Shown here piece after piece: positions 11,898 through 20,557 of a stretch of 31,978 nt of DNA. The notes beneath the pieces were generated by a model, which worked only from the letters and a program-made list of their open reading frames with translations, made no database searches and was not told where the DNA came from. This DNA is from Enterobacter phage phiT5282H, in sequence record MG589387.1; one strand, written 5' to 3'. The position numbers were made by a program, and so were the translations under genes. Every line of letters starts with the position of its first letter. Position 1 is the stretch's first letter.

Positions 11898-12110
11898 ATG
11901 ACCAGACGTGATCAATATAGCTTCATTTTGCATGTTCTTTTACCTGCTATCGAAAATGAAGGTTTAACCATTAAAACCCGCCGTGATGGCGAGTTAACCC
12001 TTTCTGCCAGTGGGTCAGTAACCACCAATTTTATAAGCAATCTGCGCCAGCACTGCATTGAAGAGTTGCAGCGCCCTTCTATTCCAGCTTCCCATTACGG
12101 AGTCCTGTAA
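11898..12110 (+). CDS. hypothetical 70-aa protein, translationally coupled to dam
   Basis: Good RBS (GAGGAAGAGATAATG). Its stop lies 1 nt before the dam ATG. Confidence 0.5.
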   Translation: MTRRDQYSFILHVLLPAIENEGLTIKTRRDGELTLSASGSVTTNFISNLRQHCIEELQRPSIPASHYGVL

Positions 12111-12111
12111 A

Positions 12112-13083
12112 ATGATCCGCCCGTTCATCAAATGGGCAGGGGGTAAAACCCGTGTCCTTCCTGACCTGCTGCCGCACCTTCCTAAAGCCGACTGCCTGAT
12201 CGAACCGTTCGTAGGCGGCGCATCGGTATTTCTGGCGACTGAATACCGCCGCTATGTGCTGGCTGATATCAACCCGGATCTTATTAACCTGTATCGGGAA
12301 GTCACCCGTTACCCGGACTTAGTGATCGATGCGGCCCGCGAACTGTTCAACAGTAAGAACAGCCCGCAGGGATACAACGAAGTCCGCGCCGCGTTCAATA
12401 AGCAGGTGGGTACGGTTAAAAGCGGTGGGTTGCGTTATGGCGCTGAAATGGCGTGCATCATGCGTGCTGCTCAATTCCTGTATCTGAACCGCCACGGTTA
12501 TAACGGCTTATGCCGTTACAGCCGTAAGACCGGCTTTAACGTGCCGTTTGGCAAGTATAAGAGCGTCTACTTTCCTGAAAATGAAATCCGCCTGTTTGCC
12601 GAAAAGGCCAACGATACAAAGGCAATATTTCTTTGCGCGCCGTTCCAGCGTTCTTTACAGGTCGTCACGGGTGGCGATGTTCTCGTTTACTGCGATCCGC
12701 CTTATCTGCCTGAGAGCAAAACAGCGGACTTCACCCAATACCATACCGAACCATTCACGGAAGACAACCACCGCCAGTTAGTCCAGGCACTGCTGGAAGT
12801 TAACCGTAAGCATGGCGTGAAGGTCGTCATTTCAAACAGCGACACCGAAGCCACCCGCGCGATTTATCAGCCCTTCAAGATGCACGAAATCAGCGTACAA
12901 CGCTCCGTCAGCACCGACAAAGACAACCGCCAGAAGGCCAAAGAAGTGATCGGCGTGCTGACTGTCTGCGACTGCTGCGGGCGTTACGGCGGCGGTTGCC
13001 CTGATTGTGGCGCCGTGATGGGTGATGCGACTTACAACGCGATGGTTGCGGCGGGCACGTTTGACGATCTGGAGGCTTTTTAA
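12112..13083 (+). CDS. dam: DNA adenine methyltransferase (Dam/D12 class) with Cys-rich C-terminal tail
   Basis: Motifs IKWAGGK, FVGGASV (motif I) and DPPY (motif IV). C-terminal ...CDCCGRYGGGCPDCG... cluster. Confidence 0.9.
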   Translation: MIRPFIKWAGGKTRVLPDLLPHLPKADCLIEPFVGGASVFLATEYRRYVLADINPDLINLYREVTRYPDLVIDAARELFNSKNSPQGYNEVRAAFNKQVGTVKSGGLRYGAEMACIMRAAQFLYLNRHGYNGLCRYSRKTGFNVPFGKYKSVYFPENEIRLFAEKANDTKAIFLCAPFQRSLQVVTGGDVLVYCDPPYLPESKTADFTQYHTEPFTEDNHRQLVQALLEVNRKHGVKVVISNSDTEATRAIYQPFKMHEISVQRSVSTDKDNRQKAKEVIGVLTVCDCCGRYGGGCPDCGAVMGDATYNAMVAAGTFDDLEAF

Positions 13084-13262: not shown

Positions 13263-15631
13263 CCACGGAAACCCGTGGCCGTCGCGCCCCTTCTCCACCT
13301 CCACCGTATCCGGGTAGCACTGACAATGCTATCCCTTACGCTTATGGGGGAAACAAACCATACCAGCCTATTGGCGTTGATGTCGCGCCGGGGCTGGATG
13401 GTTTCGACTATCTCACGCCGGACGGCAGGCGCAAGCATATTGCGTTCAGTGAACTGGTAGCGGAAGACGAAAAGCCGGAGCGCAGCAAGCTGCTGCGTCG
13501 CCGTCTGGCTTCACTTCCGCAGTATATCCGCCGCCACTTTGCCGCGAAGCTGGATGCACTGGACGCGAAAGACCGCAAAGCGGCAGATCACTGGCTGGTT
13601 AATACCTTTGAGCGCCACGTATTAACGCGAATTGATAGCGTGAACAGTGTTTACCAGCCTGACACTATGATGCCCGGCATTCTGCTGCCAATTCGCGATC
13701 AGCTTTTCCGTATGCTCTGGGCAGGGAAGAAAGAGTTAAAAAGACTGGCTTATACGCTTGCCGATATCTTTACGAGCGAGTTTATACGCGAGTCCGATCA
13801 CCAATTGGCACGCACCGGAGATCCTGAGTTCGCGGCGCTTTCTGGCTATGGCCGTATTGCGTCGCTGGCGGTGCATCTGAAAACGCCGATCCCCGGCTGG
13901 ACGGCGTATTGCAATGAAGAACTGGAAGCGGAGGACGCGTTACGCGCGGTTCTTCGCCTTGAGTCACCGCAGTGGTGGTTAAACCGCCTGCGCCGTATCC
14001 ATGCCCGGTGGCGTGAGCATTTGATGATCGCAGCGGGATACGTCCAGAAAAAATCTTCCCCATACAGTAGCGCCCCGTGCCTTACGGAATGGCTGGCCCA
14101 GAAAAAGGCTAACCGTGAATACCTCAAGGCTATGGAACTGGAAGATCAGGACACGGGCGAGCGCATTTCACTGATCGATAAAGTCGCTGGCAGTGTTGCC
14201 AATCCGGCCAACCGTCGCCGCGAACTCATGACGAGAATGCGCGGCTTTGAAGATCTGGCGAAGCTGGAAGGGCTGGCCGGTGACTTCTACACGCTGACAG
14301 CACCTTCCCGTTACCACTCCATGCAGCATAACGGGCGCCGCAATAATAAATACTGTGGCGCGTCGCCGCGCGAGACGCAGCAATATCTTTGCAAAGTCTG
14401 GGCGAGAACCCGCGCAGCGTGGAAGAGAAAAGGGATCCGCGTCTTTGGTTTTCGCGTGGTCGAACCGCACCACGATGCAACGCCACACTGGCATTTACTT
14501 CTTTTTATGCGCCCGGAATGCGTCGAGCAGGCGCGCGAAATCTTCCGTAAATATGCCCTGAAAGAAGACGGCAACGAACCGGGAGCGCAGGAAAACCGCT
14601 TTCAGGTTGTGCCGATCGACGATGCCCACGGCAGCGCAACCGGCTACATAGCGAAATACATTTCGAAGAATATCGACGGCTTCGCGCTGGATGGTGAGAA
14701 AGACGACGAAACCGGGGAAGACCTGAAAGAAATGTCACTCCGCGTTAGCGCGTGGGCATCGCGCTGGGCTATTCGTCAGTTTCAGCAGATCGGCGGTGCG
14801 CCGGTCACGGTATATCGCGAACTTCGCCGCCTGGGCGATCGCGAACTGGTGTTACACCCTGAACTGGAAACCGCCCGGCAGGCCGCTAACGGTGGCGAAT
14901 GGGATAACTACGTATTAGCCCAGGGTGGCCCATTGGTTGAGCGCGATAAGCTGCGCATCCGTCTGAATTATGAAACCACTGAAAACGGCAACGCCTACGG
15001 CGATAACGTCCAGCGAATCACAGGTATTTACTGCCCTATTACGGGCAATGACTCTTTGATCTTCACCCGCACCACTCAATACAAAATCGTGCCGAAGCGC
15101 CAGAGCGCTGACGGTGTGGCCGTTGACGTTGGTTTTTCAGGCGGCAGCGCCGCCCCTCGGAGTTCTGTCAATAACTGTACGCGGGATCCCGCGGCAGGTG
15201 CTGACGGTCTTGAACATGCCGATCATGAAGTGAGTGAGACGGTGAATTTTGATGCGCTTTCCCGGCAGGGAAAGAGGGAACTGGCGCAGAGGTTGAAAGA
15301 GGACTTGAAGCGAACTCGTAAGAAACTGTCACATCAACGGCAAGAAGGGTCTGGGCTGTCAATCAAAGAGAAACATATTCATGAGCTTCTTTCTTTACGC
15401 GGAGTTGATGCAAGCGCTGCAATGGTCAGATCGCTAATTGCTGGTTCATCTTTAGCCTGTGGGGATCAGGTAATGAGCGTAAGCAATGGGAAGTTAAAAT
15501 CAAGTAGTCGCGCTGGTGCAGGAATAGGCATGCTGCCGACACAAGTGAAGGAGATAAAAGATAAAACTGTAGAACTTATCAATCGTTGGAAACGAGTATT
15601 GGCAGTATGTTCGAGTAAACTTACTGGATAG
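13259..15631 (+). CDS. A: replication initiation protein A (rolling-circle nickase)
   Basis: 790 aa. Active-site region TGYIAKYISKNIDG (paired Tyr) and HWHLLLF motif, as in the P2 gpA family. Confidence 0.9.
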   Translation: MTTETRGRRAPSPPPPYPGSTDNAIPYAYGGNKPYQPIGVDVAPGLDGFDYLTPDGRRKHIAFSELVAEDEKPERSKLLRRRLASLPQYIRRHFAAKLDALDAKDRKAADHWLVNTFERHVLTRIDSVNSVYQPDTMMPGILLPIRDQLFRMLWAGKKELKRLAYTLADIFTSEFIRESDHQLARTGDPEFAALSGYGRIASLAVHLKTPIPGWTAYCNEELEAEDALRAVLRLESPQWWLNRLRRIHARWREHLMIAAGYVQKKSSPYSSAPCLTEWLAQKKANREYLKAMELEDQDTGERISLIDKVAGSVANPANRRRELMTRMRGFEDLAKLEGLAGDFYTLTAPSRYHSMQHNGRRNNKYCGASPRETQQYLCKVWARTRAAWKRKGIRVFGFRVVEPHHDATPHWHLLLFMRPECVEQAREIFRKYALKEDGNEPGAQENRFQVVPIDDAHGSATGYIAKYISKNIDGFALDGEKDDETGEDLKEMSLRVSAWASRWAIRQFQQIGGAPVTVYRELRRLGDRELVLHPELETARQAANGGEWDNYVLAQGGPLVERDKLRIRLNYETTENGNAYGDNVQRITGIYCPITGNDSLIFTRTTQYKIVPKRQSADGVAVDVGFSGGSAAPRSSVNNCTRDPAAGADGLEHADHEVSETVNFDALSRQGKRELAQRLKEDLKRTRKKLSHQRQEGSGLSIKEKHIHELLSLRGVDASAAMVRSLIAGSSLACGDQVMSVSNGKLKSSSRAGAGIGMLPTQVKEIKDKTVELINRWKRVLAVCSSKLTG

Positions 15632-15733
15632 ATTTTATGCTGATTATCCATACAGTAAAAAAGTGAGGATACTCTTTGAATAACGTTATTCAGAGTGGTA
15701 AGATTAGGCATTAATTTTCATTAACATAGTTAC

Positions 15734-15749
15734 CAACTTATGTAAGTTG
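15734..15749. promoter_or_regulatory. perfect 16-bp palindrome CAACTTA-TG-TAAGTTG about 20 bp upstream of the ATPase start
   Basis: Seen directly in the AT-rich 137-bp gap after gene A. Candidate operator. Confidence 0.45.
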
Positions 15750-15768
15750 ATGTTTTATTGGGGGTTTT

Positions 15769-16851
15769 ATGGTAAATGTGCGGGAGGATGAACTTTTCAA
15801 ACTCATCGAGCAAGGCATCAAAGGCAACGCAAATGCATTTACACTCCTATGCAGAAAGATGATTAACAACATCCGTAAAAATGATGAGACCTTAGCTTCT
15901 AAGCTGGCTTCGTTAGTTGCTGAGGGAACAGTATTGCGTGGGGCATCTAGTAATGCTCCTATGCCTGTGGATGGAGACTCCAGACGAAACCTTTTGCAGG
16001 AAACATCTGTCAACGCAATTGTTGAAGAACCTGTATGGAATTCGGATATCTCAAAGAAGCTGGAGTCAATTGTTAACGAAAGAGAGAATGCAGTTTCTTT
16101 GTTCAAAGCCGGTCTTGAACCTGTAAAAACGGTTTTACTTTCTGGCCCGCCAGGCGTAGGCAAAACAATGTCCGCACATTGGCTTGCTGCAAAGTTAAAT
16201 TTACCTCTTTTAACATTGGATCTCTCATCTGTAATGAGTTCTCTTTTGGGAAAAACAGGCAATAATATTAAATCCGTTATGGATTATGCCAAAGAGAAAC
16301 CATGTGTCCTTTTGCTTGATGAATTTGATGCTGTTGCAAAAAGACGTGATGATGACAGGGACGTTGGAGAATTAAAACGTTTAGTTACTGTACTCCTACA
16401 GACCATAGATGAATGGCCAGCGACCTCGCTTCTTGTTGCTGCGACTAATCACCCTGATATCTTAGATCCGGCTGTTTGGCGTCGATTTGAGCATATCCTT
16501 AAATTTAATATGCCATCAGTAGAACTGATAGATAGATATTTAGTTAATCATGATATTGAGCCTGAATTATCTAAAAAACTTGCACCATTATTAGATGGCA
16601 TGTCCTTTGCCATTATTAACCGTATTTTGAATTTCTCCAAAAAGAATGAAGTGCTTAGAAATGTTCCATTTGAAAGTTCATTAATAGAGGCCGTAGTTAC
16701 GGAGAGGGTTTCATTGGATGATTTTAGCGATAATGATCTCAATATAATTAAATATCATTTTGACGGTATTTCAAATAGGAAGATAGCTGAATTAGTTGGT
16801 GTTTCACATCCAACAATCGCGAATAAATTACAAAAGTGGGGGGTTAAATGA
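15769..16851 (+). CDS. classical AAA+ ATPase with C-terminal HTH (LuxR/sigma-70 region-4-like) domain
   Basis: Walker A LLSGPPGVGKTM, Walker B CVLLLDEFD, sensor/second region of homology VAATNHPDILDPAVWRRFE. C-terminal ISNRKIAELVGVSHPTIANKLQKWG. GGGGG RBS. Low GC. Confidence 0.85.
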   Translation: MVNVREDELFKLIEQGIKGNANAFTLLCRKMINNIRKNDETLASKLASLVAEGTVLRGASSNAPMPVDGDSRRNLLQETSVNAIVEEPVWNSDISKKLESIVNERENAVSLFKAGLEPVKTVLLSGPPGVGKTMSAHWLAAKLNLPLLTLDLSSVMSSLLGKTGNNIKSVMDYAKEKPCVLLLDEFDAVAKRRDDDRDVGELKRLVTVLLQTIDEWPATSLLVAATNHPDILDPAVWRRFEHILKFNMPSVELIDRYLVNHDIEPELSKKLAPLLDGMSFAIINRILNFSKKNEVLRNVPFESSLIEAVVTERVSLDDFSDNDLNIIKYHFDGISNRKIAELVGVSHPTIANKLQKWGVK

Positions 16852-19052
16852 TGGAAAGGAACTTACTTTTAGGTAACGGTCATGTTCTAACAAAAAAGGA
16901 ACCTTTGCCTAAAGGAAGGGATGGTAAGCGCTATCCCTATACTCTTGAAGAAGTAAGGGAGCATTTAAACCCCGAGATTGATACTTTACTCTCACGCTTT
17001 CGCAGTTTGGATGATGCGGCTAAGCCAAGGGGTGAGAGTGTATTCAATTTAACTTTACACCCAGCGTTTTTAGGTAAAAGCTACTTTCCTGAAGGGTTGC
17101 TTAGAGCGACAGGTTTACGGGATGTCGGTAGCCGTCAGGTAATCATTCGCCCACGGAAAGCGGCGCGTCAGTCCGATCAGAATAAGGACTTAGTAACGGC
17201 GCAACTGTTTGTCAGCGGTGATGATGATGCCGTTATAAGATTTAAGGAAATTTTAAATTCCCCTACAGCTCCGAAGGGCGTACAAAAGGATTTGATCGAA
17301 ATTGAAAGTGTTAGCTTTTTTGAAGGAAAAGAGAGAGCACGCAATTTTGAGCATGCGAAAAGTGATTTGATAAAATTTGAAGTGGTTCTTCATGCTGGGG
17401 TTGAAGACGATGATATCGTTAAAGCCTATATTAACTATGCGGCACAATATGGCGTCTCTGTTGATTACAAAAGTAAAATTCAAGTTGGTGGGCTGACTTT
17501 CATCGTTGCACACGCACGACCTGAAGATATGAAAAAAACCCTCGATTTTTCATTAATCCGCGTTGTGCGGCCGATGCCGTCTCTAAGGTGTACTCAGCCG
17601 AACATTGTCAGAAAGTTATCTAATATAGTTACACCGGAGTTCCCTAATTCTAAAGCTGTTCTTGAATCCGAACGTATTGCAATTTTTGACGGTGGCTTGG
17701 GGACAGCTGACTTAAGTAATTGGGTTACGGAATACGTGTATCCAGACACCAAAGAGACAAGCGGATTATTATTGCAGCACGGTAATGAAGTAACATCAAC
17801 TTTCTTATTCGGACGTGTCGAGGAAAATGCACCTTCTTTTGAAAGACCGTTTATGAATGTTGATCATTATAGAGTTCTTTCACCAACATCAGGTGACAAT
17901 GGCGATTGGGATTTGTTTGATGTCCTTAAGAAAATTCAGTCCGTTCTTGATAGTGGTGACTATAAGTTCGCTAATCTAAGTATTGGTCCTCATCTTCCAA
18001 TTGGCGATGATGAGGTTCATGCATGGACTGCTGTTTTAGACCAAATCTGTGCTAAGCATGGGATATTACTTACTGTTGCTGTTGGGAATGATGGTCATGA
18101 GGACGGTGATGCAGCGAGAATACAACCTCCTTCCGATATGGTAAACGCGCTAGCGATTGGTGCTGCTGATCGTAGCGGTGAAAAATGGGGGCGGGCACCA
18201 TATAGCTGTATTGGCCCTGGCAGAAGCCCCGGATTCGTTAAACCTGATGGTGTTATTTTTGGTGGAAGCGACGACGAGCCTTTTTACACTTACAACCCGC
18301 TGCTTGGTTCTATAGTCGGAGTTCAAGGAACCAGTTATGCCTCTCCATTAGCATTGAGAACGGCCGCTGGAGTTGCGGCTCTATCAGGAACCCCATTGAA
18401 CACCATTGCATTGAAAGCGTTGCTTGTTCATCATGCTGAAACATCAAGAAAATATTCGCGTGAACATATCGGTTGGGGACGGTTTAGTGAAGATCCTAAC
18501 GTTTTAATCGATTGTGCGAATGATACTGCTACAGTAATTTACTATGGTTCATTAGCAAAAAATAAATATTTAAGGGCACCGATCCCATTCCCCGATGTTC
18601 CCTTTGACGAAGCATTTGAGCTTACCGCTACTTTATGCATTCAAACCCCAGTTGATCCTGAACATTCAGTAAACTATACAAGGGCCGGTATGCAGGTAAC
18701 TTTCCGTCCAAGATTCGGCCTTGACGATGCCGATACTGATGATTTCTTTGGTCAAAAAAGCCAGTATAAGACCGAAAGGGAGTGTAGGAGTGAAGGTCAT
18801 AAGTGGGAAACTTGCTTGCACAGAAGCAAAAAATTCAGTGCTGATACATTATTAAGCGATCCAGTTTTTGATATACGGTATCACGCCCGAGATTCTTCGC
18901 GCCATGTTAAGGGGGTTTCAGCCCCTGATATGCAATATGCGATGGTAATAAGCGTAAGGGTAAAAGACTTTGATTTATATAATGTTATTCGCCAGCGATA
19001 TACAATTCTAAATCCTATTCAACTGCGCACACAGATTTCTCTCGACACGTAA
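16848..19052 (+). CDS. large cytoplasmic subtilisin-like (S8) serine protease with about 270-aa N-terminal and about 200-aa C-terminal domains of unknown function
   Basis: Catalytic residues in order: D in AIFDGGLGT, H in LQHGNEVTS, N in AVGNDGHE, S in GTSYASP. No signal peptide. ATGA overlap with the ATPase stop. Confidence 0.85.
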   Translation: MMERNLLLGNGHVLTKKEPLPKGRDGKRYPYTLEEVREHLNPEIDTLLSRFRSLDDAAKPRGESVFNLTLHPAFLGKSYFPEGLLRATGLRDVGSRQVIIRPRKAARQSDQNKDLVTAQLFVSGDDDAVIRFKEILNSPTAPKGVQKDLIEIESVSFFEGKERARNFEHAKSDLIKFEVVLHAGVEDDDIVKAYINYAAQYGVSVDYKSKIQVGGLTFIVAHARPEDMKKTLDFSLIRVVRPMPSLRCTQPNIVRKLSNIVTPEFPNSKAVLESERIAIFDGGLGTADLSNWVTEYVYPDTKETSGLLLQHGNEVTSTFLFGRVEENAPSFERPFMNVDHYRVLSPTSGDNGDWDLFDVLKKIQSVLDSGDYKFANLSIGPHLPIGDDEVHAWTAVLDQICAKHGILLTVAVGNDGHEDGDAARIQPPSDMVNALAIGAADRSGEKWGRAPYSCIGPGRSPGFVKPDGVIFGGSDDEPFYTYNPLLGSIVGVQGTSYASPLALRTAAGVAALSGTPLNTIALKALLVHHAETSRKYSREHIGWGRFSEDPNVLIDCANDTATVIYYGSLAKNKYLRAPIPFPDVPFDEAFELTATLCIQTPVDPEHSVNYTRAGMQVTFRPRFGLDDADTDDFFGQKSQYKTERECRSEGHKWETCLHRSKKFSADTLLSDPVFDIRYHARDSSRHVKGVSAPDMQYAMVISVRVKDFDLYNVIRQRYTILNPIQLRTQISLDT

Positions 19053-19059
19053 TTTTCAT

Positions 19060-19082
19060 GGCCGCGAAAGCGGCCTTTTTTC
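19060..19082 (+). terminator. rho-independent terminator (ggccgc-gaaa-gcggcc + T7)
   Basis: Perfect GC stem, GNRA-like loop and T-run immediately after the protease gene. Confidence 0.7.
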
Positions 19083-19104
19083 TGTAAATTTTTATGAATT
19101 TATA

Positions 19105-19130
19105 TGCACGATAGTGCACAAATTTGCACA
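19105..19130. repeat. three helically phased TGCAC(A) repeats (19105, 19114, 19125); fourth copy at 19196
   Basis: Seen directly beside the putative cos. Candidate terminase-binding elements. Confidence 0.35.
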
Positions 19131-19151
19131 ATTTTTTTGAGGCTATTTATA

Positions 19152-19175
19152 CCCTTTCCGCCCTGTGGCGGCGCG
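19152..19175. other. candidate cos (cohesive end) site
   Basis: The minus strand reads GCCGCCACAGGGCGGAAAGGGT, resembling the P2/186 cos GGCG(A/T)GGCGGGGAAAGCA. The position upstream of Q matches P2. Confidence 0.35.
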
Positions 19176-19498
19176 GTCTGACCCCGGATCGGGAAATGCA
19201 CAAAAAACGAAGCAAATGTCGTGCGCAGGTGACGGGGGAACAGCCCACGCGACGGAGGGTCGGGAGGTGATGCCTTTAATTGCCATTCTCCGGCCTTTTT
19301 CGCCTTCTCCGCGCGTTTTCTCATGTCTGGATGTGTTCAGGGTAAATTGCAGATTGCGCCTGCCAGAATGGCGCTCATGCGCTCTGAGTGAGGGGCGTTA
19401 AAGGTTGTGCTGAGTGGTGCTCAGTTGGTGGCCGTTCTTGCGAGGATTGAAAATTATTGAAGGAGAACCGCCGCAGGTTGTGCAGCGGTTGGATCGGG

Positions 19499-20557
19499 TT
19501 ACTCGTCTTTGAGCAGAGCGTAGGGATTGAAGCGGATCACTTCCTGACCGAGCCAGTCATTGACGCCTTTCATTGCTTCCATCACAGGCAACATTTCGTT
19601 GATGGCAAAGACGCGCGCGGCTTTCTCAACATCACCGAGCGAGCCGTTGCCTTCCGGCATTGCGCCCATCAGTTGCGGCGGGATGCGGTGAGCGTCGCGG
19701 AGATCGTTGCGCGTTGCTGATTTGATGTTAAGAAACTCATCCTTTGCCGATATCTGGCTGAACGGCAATAGTTGCACGCCGTCTTTGCCGCCGCCCGGCG
19801 CGTGGATCAGCACGTTTTTGAAGGAGCCTTTCCCTCTGGCCTGTGACAGCGTCTTTTGCACCACCTTTATGCTTTCCTGATCCACCTTCTCCGAGCCGAC
19901 ATAGAGAATACATCCGGCGTGAGAGCCGTTGTCGTAATAGAGTTTGCGGAACTTATCGGCGGAATGTGACAGGCTGGCGGACAGAAGCGCCCCCATGTAT
20001 TCCGGCATACCGTAGATTTCCTGATGAATGTCCGGGTTCATGATGTGGCAGACCTCGCCCGCCTTAAACTCGTATTCATCTTTCCACTGCCGGATAAACC
20101 AGTAGGTATCAAGATCGCTTCCCCGTCGCGTGTTCAGCGCCGGAACATGCTTAAGTTTTAGCGGCTCTCCCAGGTGATTAGACCGACGCTCAAGATAGGC
20201 ATTGCCGAAGACGAACCAGTCCAGCGCAAACGCAGAGAAGGCCTGCCGCGAGAGTAACGGATGAGGGATATAGCACCCGGTCAGCACATTGCGTTTGAAG
20301 TAAAGCGCCGACTGATGCAGCGGGGACTGTGTGAACGCACGGGTTAACCCCTTCCAGTCTATTGGCGTCTCGTAGTACCGACCGTTATCGACGCAGCACA
20401 TGCTGTCCAGCAGATCATAGCCGTCTGTTACTGAATATGGCCCGTCAAACGTGAAGGCGCTGAGCGCCGGATCGCTTCTGAGAGCGTCAGAGATATCAGG
20501 CTGTCCGGCACTGCCACTGCTGGCAGTGTGTTTGTTTTTGTAGGTGCGCTTCTTCAT
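19499..20557 (-). CDS. Q: portal protein Q
   Basis: 352 aa, first gene leftward from cos, followed by terminase P, as in P2. Confidence 0.85.
   Translation of the reverse strand: MKKRTYKNKHTASSGSAGQPDISDALRSDPALSAFTFDGPYSVTDGYDLLDSMCCVDNGRYYETPIDWKGLTRAFTQSPLHQSALYFKRNVLTGCYIPHPLLSRQAFSAFALDWFVFGNAYLERRSNHLGEPLKLKHVPALNTRRGSDLDTYWFIRQWKDEYEFKAGEVCHIMNPDIHQEIYGMPEYMGALLSASLSHSADKFRKLYYDNGSHAGCILYVGSEKVDQESIKVVQKTLSQARGKGSFKNVLIHAPGGGKDGVQLLPFSQISAKDEFLNIKSATRNDLRDAHRIPPQLMGAMPEGNGSLGDVEKAARVFAINEMLPVMEAMKGVNDWLGQEVIRFNPYALLKDE

What the first reader, a model, noticed from the sequence alone, without database searches (positions are those of the whole stretch)
15632..19082. AAA+ ATPase-HTH plus giant cytoplasmic subtilase cassette in the P2 'tin/old' defence hotspot
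The slot between gene A and cos holds tin/old in P2 and is a recognised variable defence-gene locus in P2-like phages. Here it contains an AT-rich, clearly foreign two-gene operon. The first gene is a classical-clade AAA+ ATPase (Walker A GPPGVGKT, Walker B LLLDEFD, second region of homology AATNHPDILDPAVWRRF) carrying an unusual C-terminal sigma-70-r4/LuxR-type HTH. It is translationally coupled (ATGA) to a 734-aa subtilisin-like protease with an intact D/H/N/S tetrad, no signal peptide, and large uncharacterised N- and C-terminal domains. A perfect palindrome lies upstream and a strong terminator downstream. The ATPase-plus-S8 pairing matches what I recall of the IetAS-type anti-phage system. 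The HTH fusion and the extra protease domains are not part of that architecture as I know it, so this may be an undescribed variant. One possibility is ATPase-gated proteolysis as an abortive-infection effector, with the HTH autoregulating through the palindrome.
Basis: partly seen in the sequence, partly recalled or inferred. Interest (0 to 1): 0.85.

Follow-up and report, generated by a model that had tools for sequence, protein, structure and literature searches.

The report
Known IetAS defence cassette in P2 hotspot
This two-gene ATPase-plus-protease cassette is a typical copy of the already catalogued IetAS toxin-antitoxin/anti-phage system in the well-known cargo slot of P2-like prophages, so it is ordinary; the one new detail is a likely DNA site through which the ATPase controls its own operon.

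Summary
At 15769-16851 and 16848-19052 lie an AT-rich (41% vs 54% GC), ATGA-overlapping pair: a 360-aa classical AAA+ ATPase with a C-terminal HTH, and a 734-aa signal-less S8 subtilase with intact D281/H311/N414/S496. It sits between P2 gene A and the portal gene and ends in a strong terminator.

It is IetAS. PADLOC IetA/IetS profiles match nearly end to end (1.9e-88, 1.9e-41). It is not an undescribed variant. Rousset et al. 2022 list this cassette (IetA 98% identical, domains written "AAA/HTH_50 + Peptidase_S8") as system #7 of this hotspot, with 400 occurrences, labelled ietAS. The HTH tail and the protease's flanking domains are family-wide across many phyla.

Published work on relatives shows the protease is the toxin, the ATPase is the antitoxin, and defence is abortive infection triggered by a phage protein. 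The molecular mechanism is unknown.

New here:
- A different inverted repeat, TGGTAA-N28-TTACCA (15696-15735), overlaps the -10. It sits at fixed positions in ~50%-identical systems and co-varies with the HTH recognition helix, so it is a likely IetA operator.
- IetS is predicted to fold like an unprocessed pro-subtilase.

Verdict: already known; low interest.

The parts
15676..15704 (+). Putative sigma-70 promoter of the operon: -35 TTGAAT (15676-15681), 17-nt spacer, extended -10 TGgTAAGAT (TG at 15696-15697, hexamer 15699-15704).
   Evidence: Read from the sequence. Both hexamers and the TGG are kept in E. coli, Plesiomonas, Serratia and Pantoea cassettes while the spacer varies. It matches 8 of 12 consensus positions, so the scan tool, which needs 9 of 12, did not list it. 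Inferred, not demonstrated.
15677..15692 (.). It lies in the -35 hexamer and spacer of the putative promoter.
   Evidence: Present in the window. The right arm differs in 97%-identical E. coli cassettes (GCCAGTAAGA, GCCAGCAAGA) and in Plesiomonas. It is probably fortuitous or lineage-specific.
15696..15735 (.). Conserved inverted repeat TGGTAA (15696-15701) - 28 nt - TTACCA (15730-15735). The first arm overlaps the extended -10; the second lies in the predicted 5' leader. Candidate operator of the IetA HTH.
   Evidence: It is the only match to TGGTAM-N15-40-KTACCA in the 32-kb window (0.12 expected). The pattern occurs in 9 of 10 close lineages and 9 of 79 distant loci, against 1 of 5,799 background windows. 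It sits at -73 and -39/-40 from the ATG in enterobacteria, Pseudomonas, Chromobacterium and Ralstonia, with the arms co-varying A/T to C/G. It tracks the recognition helix type.
15760..15764 (+). Shine-Dalgarno-like GGGGG, 4 nt upstream of the ietA ATG.
   Evidence: Sequence; conserved in relatives.
15769..16851 (+). ietA: 360-aa classical-clade AAA+ ATPase, the antitoxin/regulator component. Predicted parts: N-terminal three-helix bundle (aa 6-52), disordered linker (54-70), AAA+ module (~92-313), C-terminal three-helix HTH (321-356; nt 16729-16836).
   Evidence: PADLOC IetA PDLC02196 1.9e-88, covering residues 7-356 of the protein and 5-370 of the 374-position profile. Pfam AAA 1e-30. AF2 model with pLDDT 79. 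Foldseek best matches are p97, FtsH, Rpt, Vps4 and spastin. K132, D184, E185, R238 and R239 are invariant in 47 homologues.
16848..19052 (+). ietS: 734-aa cytoplasmic S8 subtilase, the toxin/effector component. Predicted parts: conserved N-terminal peptide (aa 1-31), two alpha/beta modules (~33-250), S8 catalytic core (~272-555; D281, H311, N414, S496), C-terminal beta-sandwich (~556-734).
19060..19082 (+). Intrinsic terminator: GGCCGC-GAAA-GCGGCC followed by TTTTTTCTGT.
   Evidence: Terminator scan: 6 of 6 G-C pairs, tetraloop, T-run; sequence.

Best explanation
This is an ordinary, intact copy of the IetAS system, a two-gene toxin-antitoxin-type anti-phage module carried as cargo in the gpA-gpQ hotspot of a P2-like prophage.

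IetS is a cytoplasmic subtilase and acts as the toxic effector. IetA is a classical-clade AAA+ ATPase, presumably hexameric, and acts as its antitoxin.

Proposed working:
1. The operon is transcribed from a weak sigma-70 promoter. IetA represses it through its C-terminal HTH by binding helically phased TGGTAA/TTACCA half-sites, one of which overlaps the -10.
2. In the uninfected lysogen, ATP-dependent action of IetA keeps IetS inactive. IetS is predicted to be built like an unprocessed pro-subtilase, with N-terminal prodomain-like modules and a C-terminal beta-sandwich.
3. During infection a phage protein disturbs the IetA-IetS balance. IetS proteolysis is unleashed and the cell stops growing or dies before the competing phage matures (abortive infection). 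This protects the lysogen population and the resident prophage.

Status of each step. Shown here: identity, architecture, intact catalytic motifs, hotspot position, and comparative evidence for the operator. Taken from published work on relatives: toxin/antitoxin roles, abortive infection, a phage-protein trigger, and the need for protease activity. Inferred: the way IetA restrains IetS, the zymogen-like state, and the operator's function.
For: Identity and architecture:
- Near full-length PADLOC IetA and IetS matches.
- NCBIfam IteA/IteS are the top hits.
- IetA is 98% identical to the representative that Rousset 2022 labels ietAS, system #7 with 400 occurrences in the P2 hotspot. Their Table S5A gives the same protein accessions as locus L003.

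Context:
- The cassette lies between Phage_GPA and the portal gene here and in E. coli, Serratia, Pantoea and Limnobaculum P2-like prophages.
- Elsewhere it sits in other mobile elements and next to an RVT_1 gene or P4-like genes.
- Only 32 of 5,426 complete E. coli genomes carry it, so it is accessory cargo.

Activity motifs: all ATPase and protease catalytic residues are invariant.

Published function of relatives:
- The SGI1 SgiAT and pTiC58 IetAS protease is the toxin and the ATPase is the antitoxin (PMC5006074).
- An ietA mutant could not be constructed, and protease activity is needed for defence (PMC13069673).
- B. cereus ietAS acts by abortive infection and is triggered by SPbeta YosG.
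- E. coli ECOR52 ietAS was cloned and tested, and E. coli ietAS is prophage-located.

Operator:
- Motif statistics and fixed positions.
- The SHPT(V/I) helix goes with TGGTAM. The SRDTIRK helix goes with TGGAC..GTCCA (27 of 56 loci vs 16 of 1,751 background windows).
- HTH-less pTi and Klebsiella loci lack the motif near the promoter.

Folds:
- IetA resembles p97/FtsH/Rpt unfoldases.
- IetS resembles pro-forms of subtilases that have a propeptide and a C-terminal beta-domain.
- There is a weak SUB1 prodomain hit at E 0.17.
Against: - No experiment on this exact cassette was available. I could not establish how similar the tested systems (Gao 2020, ECOR52, B. cereus) are to it.
- NCBIfam scores are far below the equivalog cut-offs (252 vs 510 bits; 116 vs 900 bits). 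It is therefore a different subfamily from NCBI's exemplars, and function is transferred across ~30-50% identity.
- The pTi IetS matches the profile of this subfamily only marginally (hhalign probability 3.5%).
- The operator motif is absent or incomplete in a few loci of the SHPT-like helix group (L017, L019, L021, L026).
- The prodomain-like reading of the IetS N-terminal region rests on whole-chain fold matches, not on domain-level comparison.
Confidence: 0.8

Rival explanations
1. The cassette serves mainly as an addiction (post-segregational killing) module that stabilises the prophage or a plasmid-like form of it, and not as anti-phage defence.
For: - The founding members are maintenance toxin-antitoxin systems of pTiC58 and SGI1.
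- In 31 of 32 E. coli genomes the cassette lies directly after ParM/StbA and ParR-like partition genes.
- Rousset 2022 suggest that such P2-like phages may be maintained as plasmids.
Against: - Family members give phage resistance by abortive infection.
- This window has no partition genes; ietAS follows gene A directly.
- The slot is a defence hotspot.
- The two roles are not exclusive.
Confidence: 0.25
2. One reading: an undescribed architectural variant of IetAS, with a novel HTH fusion and novel protease domains.
For: - The pTi-type IetA (328 aa) and the Klebsiella plasmid IetA lack the HTH tail.
- NCBIfam IteA aligns only to residues 8-303.
Against: - Rousset 2022 already record 'AAA/HTH_50 + Peptidase_S8' as ietAS in this hotspot.
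- PADLOC IetA PDLC02196 covers residues 7-356.
- PHROGs already hold full-length families for both proteins.
- The listed ~50%-identical homologues and 80 loci from many phyla keep the tail.
- IetS homologues are 730-740 aa with 100% coverage.
- The IetS/IteS profiles align from residue ~22.
Confidence: 0.04
3. The HTH acts through the perfect palindrome TGAATAACGTTATTCA (15677-15692).
For: A perfect 16-nt palindrome overlaps the -35 and spacer.
Against: The right arm is not conserved even in cassettes with 97% DNA identity, although the HTH recognition helix is identical there. No equivalent palindrome appears in more distant relatives, whereas the TGGTAM/KTACCA pair does.
Confidence: 0.05
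4. The pair is a core phage function, for example a morphogenetic protease with a chaperone-like ATPase.
For: It is phage-borne and sits next to the portal and terminase genes.
Against: - It is present in only 32 of 5,426 E. coli genomes, and in 400 of 18,150 P2 hotspot loci per Rousset 2022.
- Composition is foreign.
- The same cassette occurs in lambdoid prophages, P4-like elements, plasmids and chromosomal islands.
Confidence: 0.01

Closest known systems
ietAS of the E. coli P2-like gpA-gpQ hotspot (Rousset et al. 2022, Table S5B, system #7)
   Same: Same two genes, same slot, same domain string (AAA/HTH_50 + Peptidase_S8). IetA is 98% identical (351 of 360 residues). DNA is 97% identical to 31 complete E. 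coli genomes, including EPEC E2348/69.
   Different: This copy is a ~3% divergent allele found in a single complete genome, AMR2684. It follows gene A directly. The other 31 E. coli copies follow parMR-like partition genes.
IetAS of pTiC58 (Yamamoto et al. 2009) and SgiAT of Salmonella genomic island 1 (Huguet et al. 2016)
   Same: An AAA+ ATPase gene followed by an S8 protease gene. The protease is the toxin and the ATPase is the antitoxin. The AAA+ core is ~30% identical.
   Different: The pTi-type IetA (328 aa) has no C-terminal HTH. Its IetS is 836 aa and only marginally alignable to this subfamily's profile. The TGGTA motif is absent upstream. The described role is replicon maintenance.
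ietAS of Gao et al. 2020, the B. cereus m1293 ietAS (Stokar-Avihail et al.), the ECOR52 ietAS (Wu et al.) and ietHAS (Liu et al. 2026)
   Same: Same family by PADLOC and NCBIfam profiles. These are the experimentally tested anti-phage members: abortive infection, a phage-protein trigger, and a need for protease activity.
   Different: Their sequence relationship to this copy was not determined. NCBIfam scores below the equivalog cut-offs indicate a different subfamily. ietHAS has an extra SNF2 helicase gene, which is absent here.
Pro-subtilases with a C-terminal beta-domain (Tk-SP 3afg, KP-43 1wmd, fervidolysin 1r6v)
   Different: Those enzymes are secreted and are activated by cleavage of the propeptide. 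IetS is cytoplasmic, shares only 13-16% identity with them, has a larger N-terminal region, and is partnered with an AAA+ ATPase.

Membership tests
IetAS (PADLOC IetA/IetS; Gao_Iet) | Adjacent, co-oriented genes for an AAA+ ATPase followed by an S8 peptidase | tested here: met
   ORFs 15769-16851 and 16848-19052, with an ATGA overlap; Pfam AAA and Peptidase_S8.
IetAS (PADLOC IetA/IetS; Gao_Iet) | Match to the IetA profile over most of its length | tested here: met
   PDLC02196 1.9e-88, residues 7-356 of the protein against 5-370 of the 374-position profile; three further IetA profiles also match.
IetAS (PADLOC IetA/IetS; Gao_Iet) | Match to the IetS profile over most of its length | tested here: met
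   PDLC02197 1.9e-41, residues 22-707 of the protein against 24-718 of the 749-position profile; six further IetS profiles match in part.
NCBIfam IteA_antiphage / IteS_antiphage equivalogs | Score above the curated equivalog cut-off | tested here: not met
   IteA scores 252 bits against a cut-off of 510; IteS scores 116 bits against 900. They are the top hits but below cut-off, so this is the same broad family and not NCBI's equivalog group. RefSeq accordingly names the genes only 'AAA family ATPase' and 'S8 family peptidase'.
IetAS (PADLOC IetA/IetS; Gao_Iet) | Intact ATPase motifs and protease catalytic residues | tested here: met
   K132, D184, E185, R238 and R239 are invariant. D281, H311, N414 and S496 are invariant.
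IetAS as a toxin-antitoxin system | The protease is toxic alone and is neutralised by the ATPase | not testable with these tools
   Shown for SGI1 SgiAT and pTiC58 and implied for ietHAS. Not tested for this cassette.
IetAS as an anti-phage system | Confers phage resistance when expressed | not testable with these tools
   Reported for other members. Gao 2020 could not be read. The identity of the tested systems to this copy is unknown.
P2-like gpA-gpQ (old/tin) hotspot cargo | Located between replication gene A and portal gene Q of a P2-like prophage, with variable content among relatives | tested here: met
   Phage_GPA lies upstream; portal and terminase lie downstream. The hotspot is defined in PMC9122126. 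The cassette is present in only 32 of 5,426 genomes.

The most novel reading that the evidence does not exclude
The HTH-tailed IetA subfamily may work differently from the HTH-less pTi type. The IetA oligomer would sit on helically phased half-sites at its own promoter: TGGTAA/TTACCA here, and up to five sites at 11- or 21-nt steps in relatives. Displacement or titration of IetA by a phage product would then both derepress the operon and release a zymogen-like IetS. Promoter occupancy would be part of the infection sensor and not just housekeeping autoregulation. The narrower claim, that the conserved repeat is the IetA operator and mediates autorepression, I rate at about 0.6. I found no description of it in the papers searched.
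Probability: 0.15. Interest if true: 0.45.

Novelty: already known. Interest (0 to 1): 0.15.

Why it matters
As a discovery it matters little. The cassette, its domain string and its position in the P2 hotspot are already in a published catalogue and in defence-system HMM libraries.

It has some value as a clean natural example, with native promoter, operator-like repeat and terminator all within 3.5 kb, of a system whose molecular mechanism is still unknown.

The comparative results give two cheap, testable handles:
- A candidate operator that co-varies with the HTH recognition helix.
- A pro-subtilase-like build of the toxin, which suggests where the ATPase might act.

Tried and rejected
- Primary papers: Gao et al. 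2020 (PMC7985843) and Yamamoto et al. 2009 (PMC2704731) are not held. What they show is cited only through papers that quote them.
- Phage collection: no near match to the cassette, only a 109-nt AAA stretch in Paenibacillus phages. No match to the downstream 19083-19520 region either, so the cos site and the closest sequenced phage were not identified.
- PDB by sequence: no solved IetA or IetS. There are only generic subtilisin hits (E >= 2.6e-4) and p97-type AAA hits.
- hhalign of the IetS subfamily profile against the pTi IetS was not significant (probability 3.5%). Against the E. faecium IetS it was significant for the catalytic and C-terminal parts only.
- The promoter scan did not list the proposed promoter, which matches 8 of 12 positions against the tool's threshold of 9. 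Promoter-like hits in the region were at chance level (9 found, 8.7 expected).
- Pfam found nothing significant in the IetS N-terminal 270 aa (SUB1 prodomain, E 0.17) or in the C-terminal 184 aa.
- The main texts of the two P2-hotspot papers do not mention ietAS. The evidence was in Rousset's supplementary tables.
Full report
1. WHAT IS THERE

The two ORFs exist as described: 15769-16851 (360 aa) and 16848-19052 (734 aa), both on the + strand, overlapping in ATGA. The block 15632-19082 has 41.2% GC against 53.8% for the rest of the window.

The first protein has Pfam AAA (1e-30) with Walker A 126-133, Walker B 181-187 and the second region of homology with R238/R239. The second has Peptidase_S8 (4.9e-17, residues 288-544), with D281, H311, N414 and S496 and a hydrophilic N-terminus.

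Upstream lies P2 gene A (Phage_GPA 1.6e-105). Downstream, on the opposite strand, lie the portal and large terminase genes.

The window is 100% identical to a P2-like prophage integrated next to cpxP in E. coli AMR2684. The 16-nt perfect palindrome (15677-15692) and the GC-rich hairpin with T-run (19060-19082) are both real.

2. WHAT IT IS

PADLOC profiles identify the pair as IetA (PDLC02196, 1.9e-88, residues 7-356 of 360) and IetS (PDLC02197, 1.9e-41, residues 22-707 of 734). NCBIfam's IteA/IteS anti-phage models are the top hits but score far below their equivalog cut-offs. This is therefore a different subfamily from NCBI's exemplars. PHROGs already contains full-length families for both proteins, annotated 'unknown function'.

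3. IT IS ALREADY CATALOGUED AT THIS LOCUS

Rousset et al. 2022 (PMC9122126) defined the gpA-gpQ region of E. coli P2-like phages as a defence hotspot, with 18,150 loci and 1,650 gene arrangements.
- The IetA sequence printed there is 351/360 identical to the window's and includes the HTH tail.
- Table S5A writes the arrangement as 'AAA/HTH_50 + Peptidase_S8'. It names WP_000248600 + WP_000970615, the accessions annotated in E. coli A1 (locus L003), whose cassette is 97% identical in DNA to the window's.

In complete E. coli genomes the cassette occurs in 32 of 5,426, always chromosomal. In 31 of them it lies directly after ParM/StbA and ParR-like partition genes. The window's direct gpA-ietAS arrangement is the exception in E. 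coli. It is shared by P2-like prophages of Serratia, Pantoea and Limnobaculum.

Other relatives sit elsewhere:
- An 84%-identical copy sits in the lysis region of a lambdoid prophage on a Plesiomonas plasmid.
- ~50%-identical copies in Pseudomonas lie in P4-like or DUF927 islands, one beside an RVT_1 gene.

4. ARE THE HTH AND THE EXTRA PROTEASE DOMAINS UNUSUAL?

They are unusual only relative to the founding pTi-type system. The pTi IetA (328 aa) and a Klebsiella plasmid IetA end before the tail. An E. faecium plasmid IetA has it.

Among database homologues the tail is the rule:
- Proteins of ~358-365 aa at ~50% identity from Pseudomonas, Burkholderia, Ralstonia, Chromobacterium and others carry HTH_23, HTH_38 or HTH_50 hits.
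- 80 loci from Proteobacteria, Acidobacteriota, Planctomycetota, Actinomycetota, Bacillota, Bacteroidota and Chloroflexota mostly align through residue 350-360.

IetS homologues are uniformly 730-740 aa with 100% coverage. The NCBIfam and PADLOC IetS profiles align from residue ~22.

The HTH is a simple three-helix unit (model residues 321-356). Its best match is HTH_50, not sigma-70 region 4 or LuxR.

5. STRUCTURE PREDICTIONS

IetA (pLDDT 79):
- An N-terminal three-helix bundle, a disordered linker, an AAA+ module and the HTH.
- Sequence and fold neighbours are p97, FtsH, proteasomal Rpt, Vps4 and spastin, all hexameric protein remodellers.
- At the pore-loop-1 position it has an invariant S-L-L-G where the pTi IetA has F-M-G. 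I did not pursue the meaning of this.

IetS (pLDDT 83, pTM 0.86):
- A highly conserved N-terminal peptide (residues 1-31, low confidence), two alpha/beta modules (~33-250), the S8 core and a C-terminal beta-sandwich.
- The best whole-chain matches are pro-forms or multidomain subtilases with a propeptide and/or a C-terminal beta-domain: ProN-Tk-SP 3afg, KP-43, fervidolysin, PCSK9 and pro-subtilisin E.
- A weak SUB1-prodomain Pfam hit (E 0.17) points the same way.
- The prodomain-like reading is an inference, because domain-level searches could not be run.
- No solved IetA or IetS structure exists in the PDB copy.

6. REGULATION

In cassettes with 97% DNA identity and an identical HTH recognition helix, its right arm reads GCCAGTAAGA or GCCAGCAAGA, and in Plesiomonas it is different again.

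What is conserved around it is TTGAAT, 17 nt, then TGgTAAGAT. This is a plausible sigma-70 promoter with an extended -10 (15676-15704).

Comparing upstream regions of ~50%-identical systems, whose DNA is otherwise unalignable, revealed an inverted repeat: TGGTAM...KTACCA.
- In the window it is TGGTAA 15696-15701 and TTACCA 15730-15735. This is the only match in 32 kb (0.12 expected).
- The pattern is present upstream of ietA in 9 of 10 close lineages and 9 of 79 distant loci, against 1 of 5,799 background 280-nt windows from the same loci.
- The arms lie at -73 and -39/-40 from the start codon in enterobacteria, Pseudomonas, Chromobacterium and Ralstonia.
- The arms co-vary: TGGTAA/TTACCA against TGGTAC/GTACCA.
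- Extra copies are phased by ~11 or ~21 nt: -84/-73/-62/-40 in P. fluorescens and -114/-93/-72/-51/-30 in a Vibrio.
- Presence tracks the recognition helix. Loci with (V/I)SHPT(V/I), THPTV or SRPTV mostly have the motif, including two actinobacterial loci.
- The 56 loci with an SRDTIRK-type helix lack it. They carry a different inverted repeat, TGGAC...GTCCA (extended form GTGGACTA), in 27 of 56 loci against 16 of 1,751 background windows.
- HTH-less pTi and Klebsiella loci have no copy near the promoter.

This helix/repeat co-variation is comparative evidence that the IetA HTH binds its own promoter. Because one arm overlaps the -10, the simplest reading is autorepression, as in many type II antitoxins. 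It is not proof. Exceptions exist: L017 has only one arm, L019 has the upstream-arm copies but no downstream arm, L021 has only the downstream arm, and L026 has none.

7. HOW IT MOST LIKELY WORKS

From published work on relatives:
- The protease is the toxin and the ATPase is the antitoxin: SGI1 SgiAT and pTiC58 (PMC5006074). In ietHAS an ietA mutant could not be constructed, and protease activity is required for defence (PMC13069673).
- A B. cereus ietAS defends by abortive infection, and expression of the phage protein YosG makes it toxic (bioRxiv 10.1101/2022.08.27.505566).
- An E. coli ietAS from ECOR52 was cloned and tested against a phage panel, and E. coli ietAS is noted as prophage-located (bioRxiv 10.1101/2022.08.21.504612).
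- The 2026 paper states that the anti-phage mechanism remains unknown.

My best model is this. IetA, an ATP-driven remodeller, continuously keeps a zymogen-like IetS inactive and represses the operon. A phage product upsets this, and IetS proteolysis then arrests or kills the cell. The identity and architecture are shown here. The toxin/antitoxin roles, abortive infection and the phage-protein trigger are transferred from relatives at 30-50% identity. The way IetA restrains IetS is inferred.

8. RIVALS

The main rival is that the cassette serves as an addiction module for the prophage. The maintenance role of the founding members and the tight linkage to partition genes in 31 of 32 E. coli copies favour it. 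The defence phenotypes of family members and the lack of partition genes in this window speak for defence. The two roles can coexist.

9. VERDICT

The claim of novelty is not: this is a typical member of a catalogued system in a catalogued hotspot. Interest is low (0.15). The candidate operator and the pro-subtilase-like build of IetS are modest, testable additions.

Noticed in passing
window 15769 vs 15859 (L001 18360): RefSeq annotates IetA of AMR2684 as 330 aa, starting 30 codons downstream of the start supported here. The 360-aa start at 15769 is supported by the family alignment (M1 invariant and V2 nearly invariant), the GGGGG Shine-Dalgarno at 15760-15764, and the 360-aa annotation in other genomes. 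Some genomes annotate 375 aa instead.
   Followed up: partly
window 15513-15631: The last ~120 nt of the gene A ORF are homologous to DNA that is intergenic in other E. coli prophages, where it lies between the parR-like gene and ietA. The cassette seems to travel with a gene-A 3' fragment, which marks an old recombination junction inside gene A.
   Followed up: partly
window 15639-15661: The block GCTGATTATCCATACAGTAAAAA, just upstream of the putative -35, is conserved in Plesiomonas, Serratia, Pantoea and Limnobaculum cassettes but not in Pseudomonas or beta-proteobacteria. Its function is unknown; it could be an UP element, a second site or a host-factor site.
   Followed up: no
window 12058-13083: The Dam-type methylase ORF is a single intact 341-aa frame with a full-length MethyltransfD12 match (5.7e-63). 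RefSeq nevertheless annotates two 'incomplete' pseudogene pieces there. The C-terminal ~55 aa may be chimeric.
   Followed up: no
L002/L003 6608-7883 and 31 E. coli genomes: In 31 of 32 complete E. coli genomes the ietAS cassette lies immediately after ParM/StbA and ParR-like partition genes. This is a toxin-antitoxin plus partition pairing typical of plasmid maintenance modules.
   Followed up: partly
L007 5866-9284 (Plesiomonas plasmid pPS-MS-17-188-1): An 84%-identical ietAS sits inside a lambdoid prophage between the endolysin gene and a DUF2514 (Rz-like) gene. The same cassette therefore moves between unrelated phage types and slots.
   Followed up: no
[not shown]
   Followed up: no
IetA residues 156-161 (window 16234-16251): The pore-loop-1 position reads M-S-S-L-L-G (M156, S157, S158, L160 and G161 invariant in the HTH-tailed subfamily), with no aromatic residue. 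The pTi-type IetA has F-M-G there. This may indicate a different mode of substrate handling.
   Followed up: no
L030 (Vibrio), L011 (P. fluorescens) upstream of ietA: These loci have multiple TGGTA/TACCA half-sites at regular 21-nt or 11-nt steps, up to five in Vibrio. This suggests an oligomer binding along one face of the DNA.
   Followed up: partly
L013 3853-7442; Rousset 2022 supplementary file 2: A Pseudomonas ietAS lies next to a P4-like integrase and Ogr_Delta and AlpA genes. Rousset's P4-satellite hotspot table also lists an 'AAA | Peptidase_S8' system as 'similar to ietAS'. IetAS-type cargo is thus shared between helper phages and their satellites.
   Followed up: no
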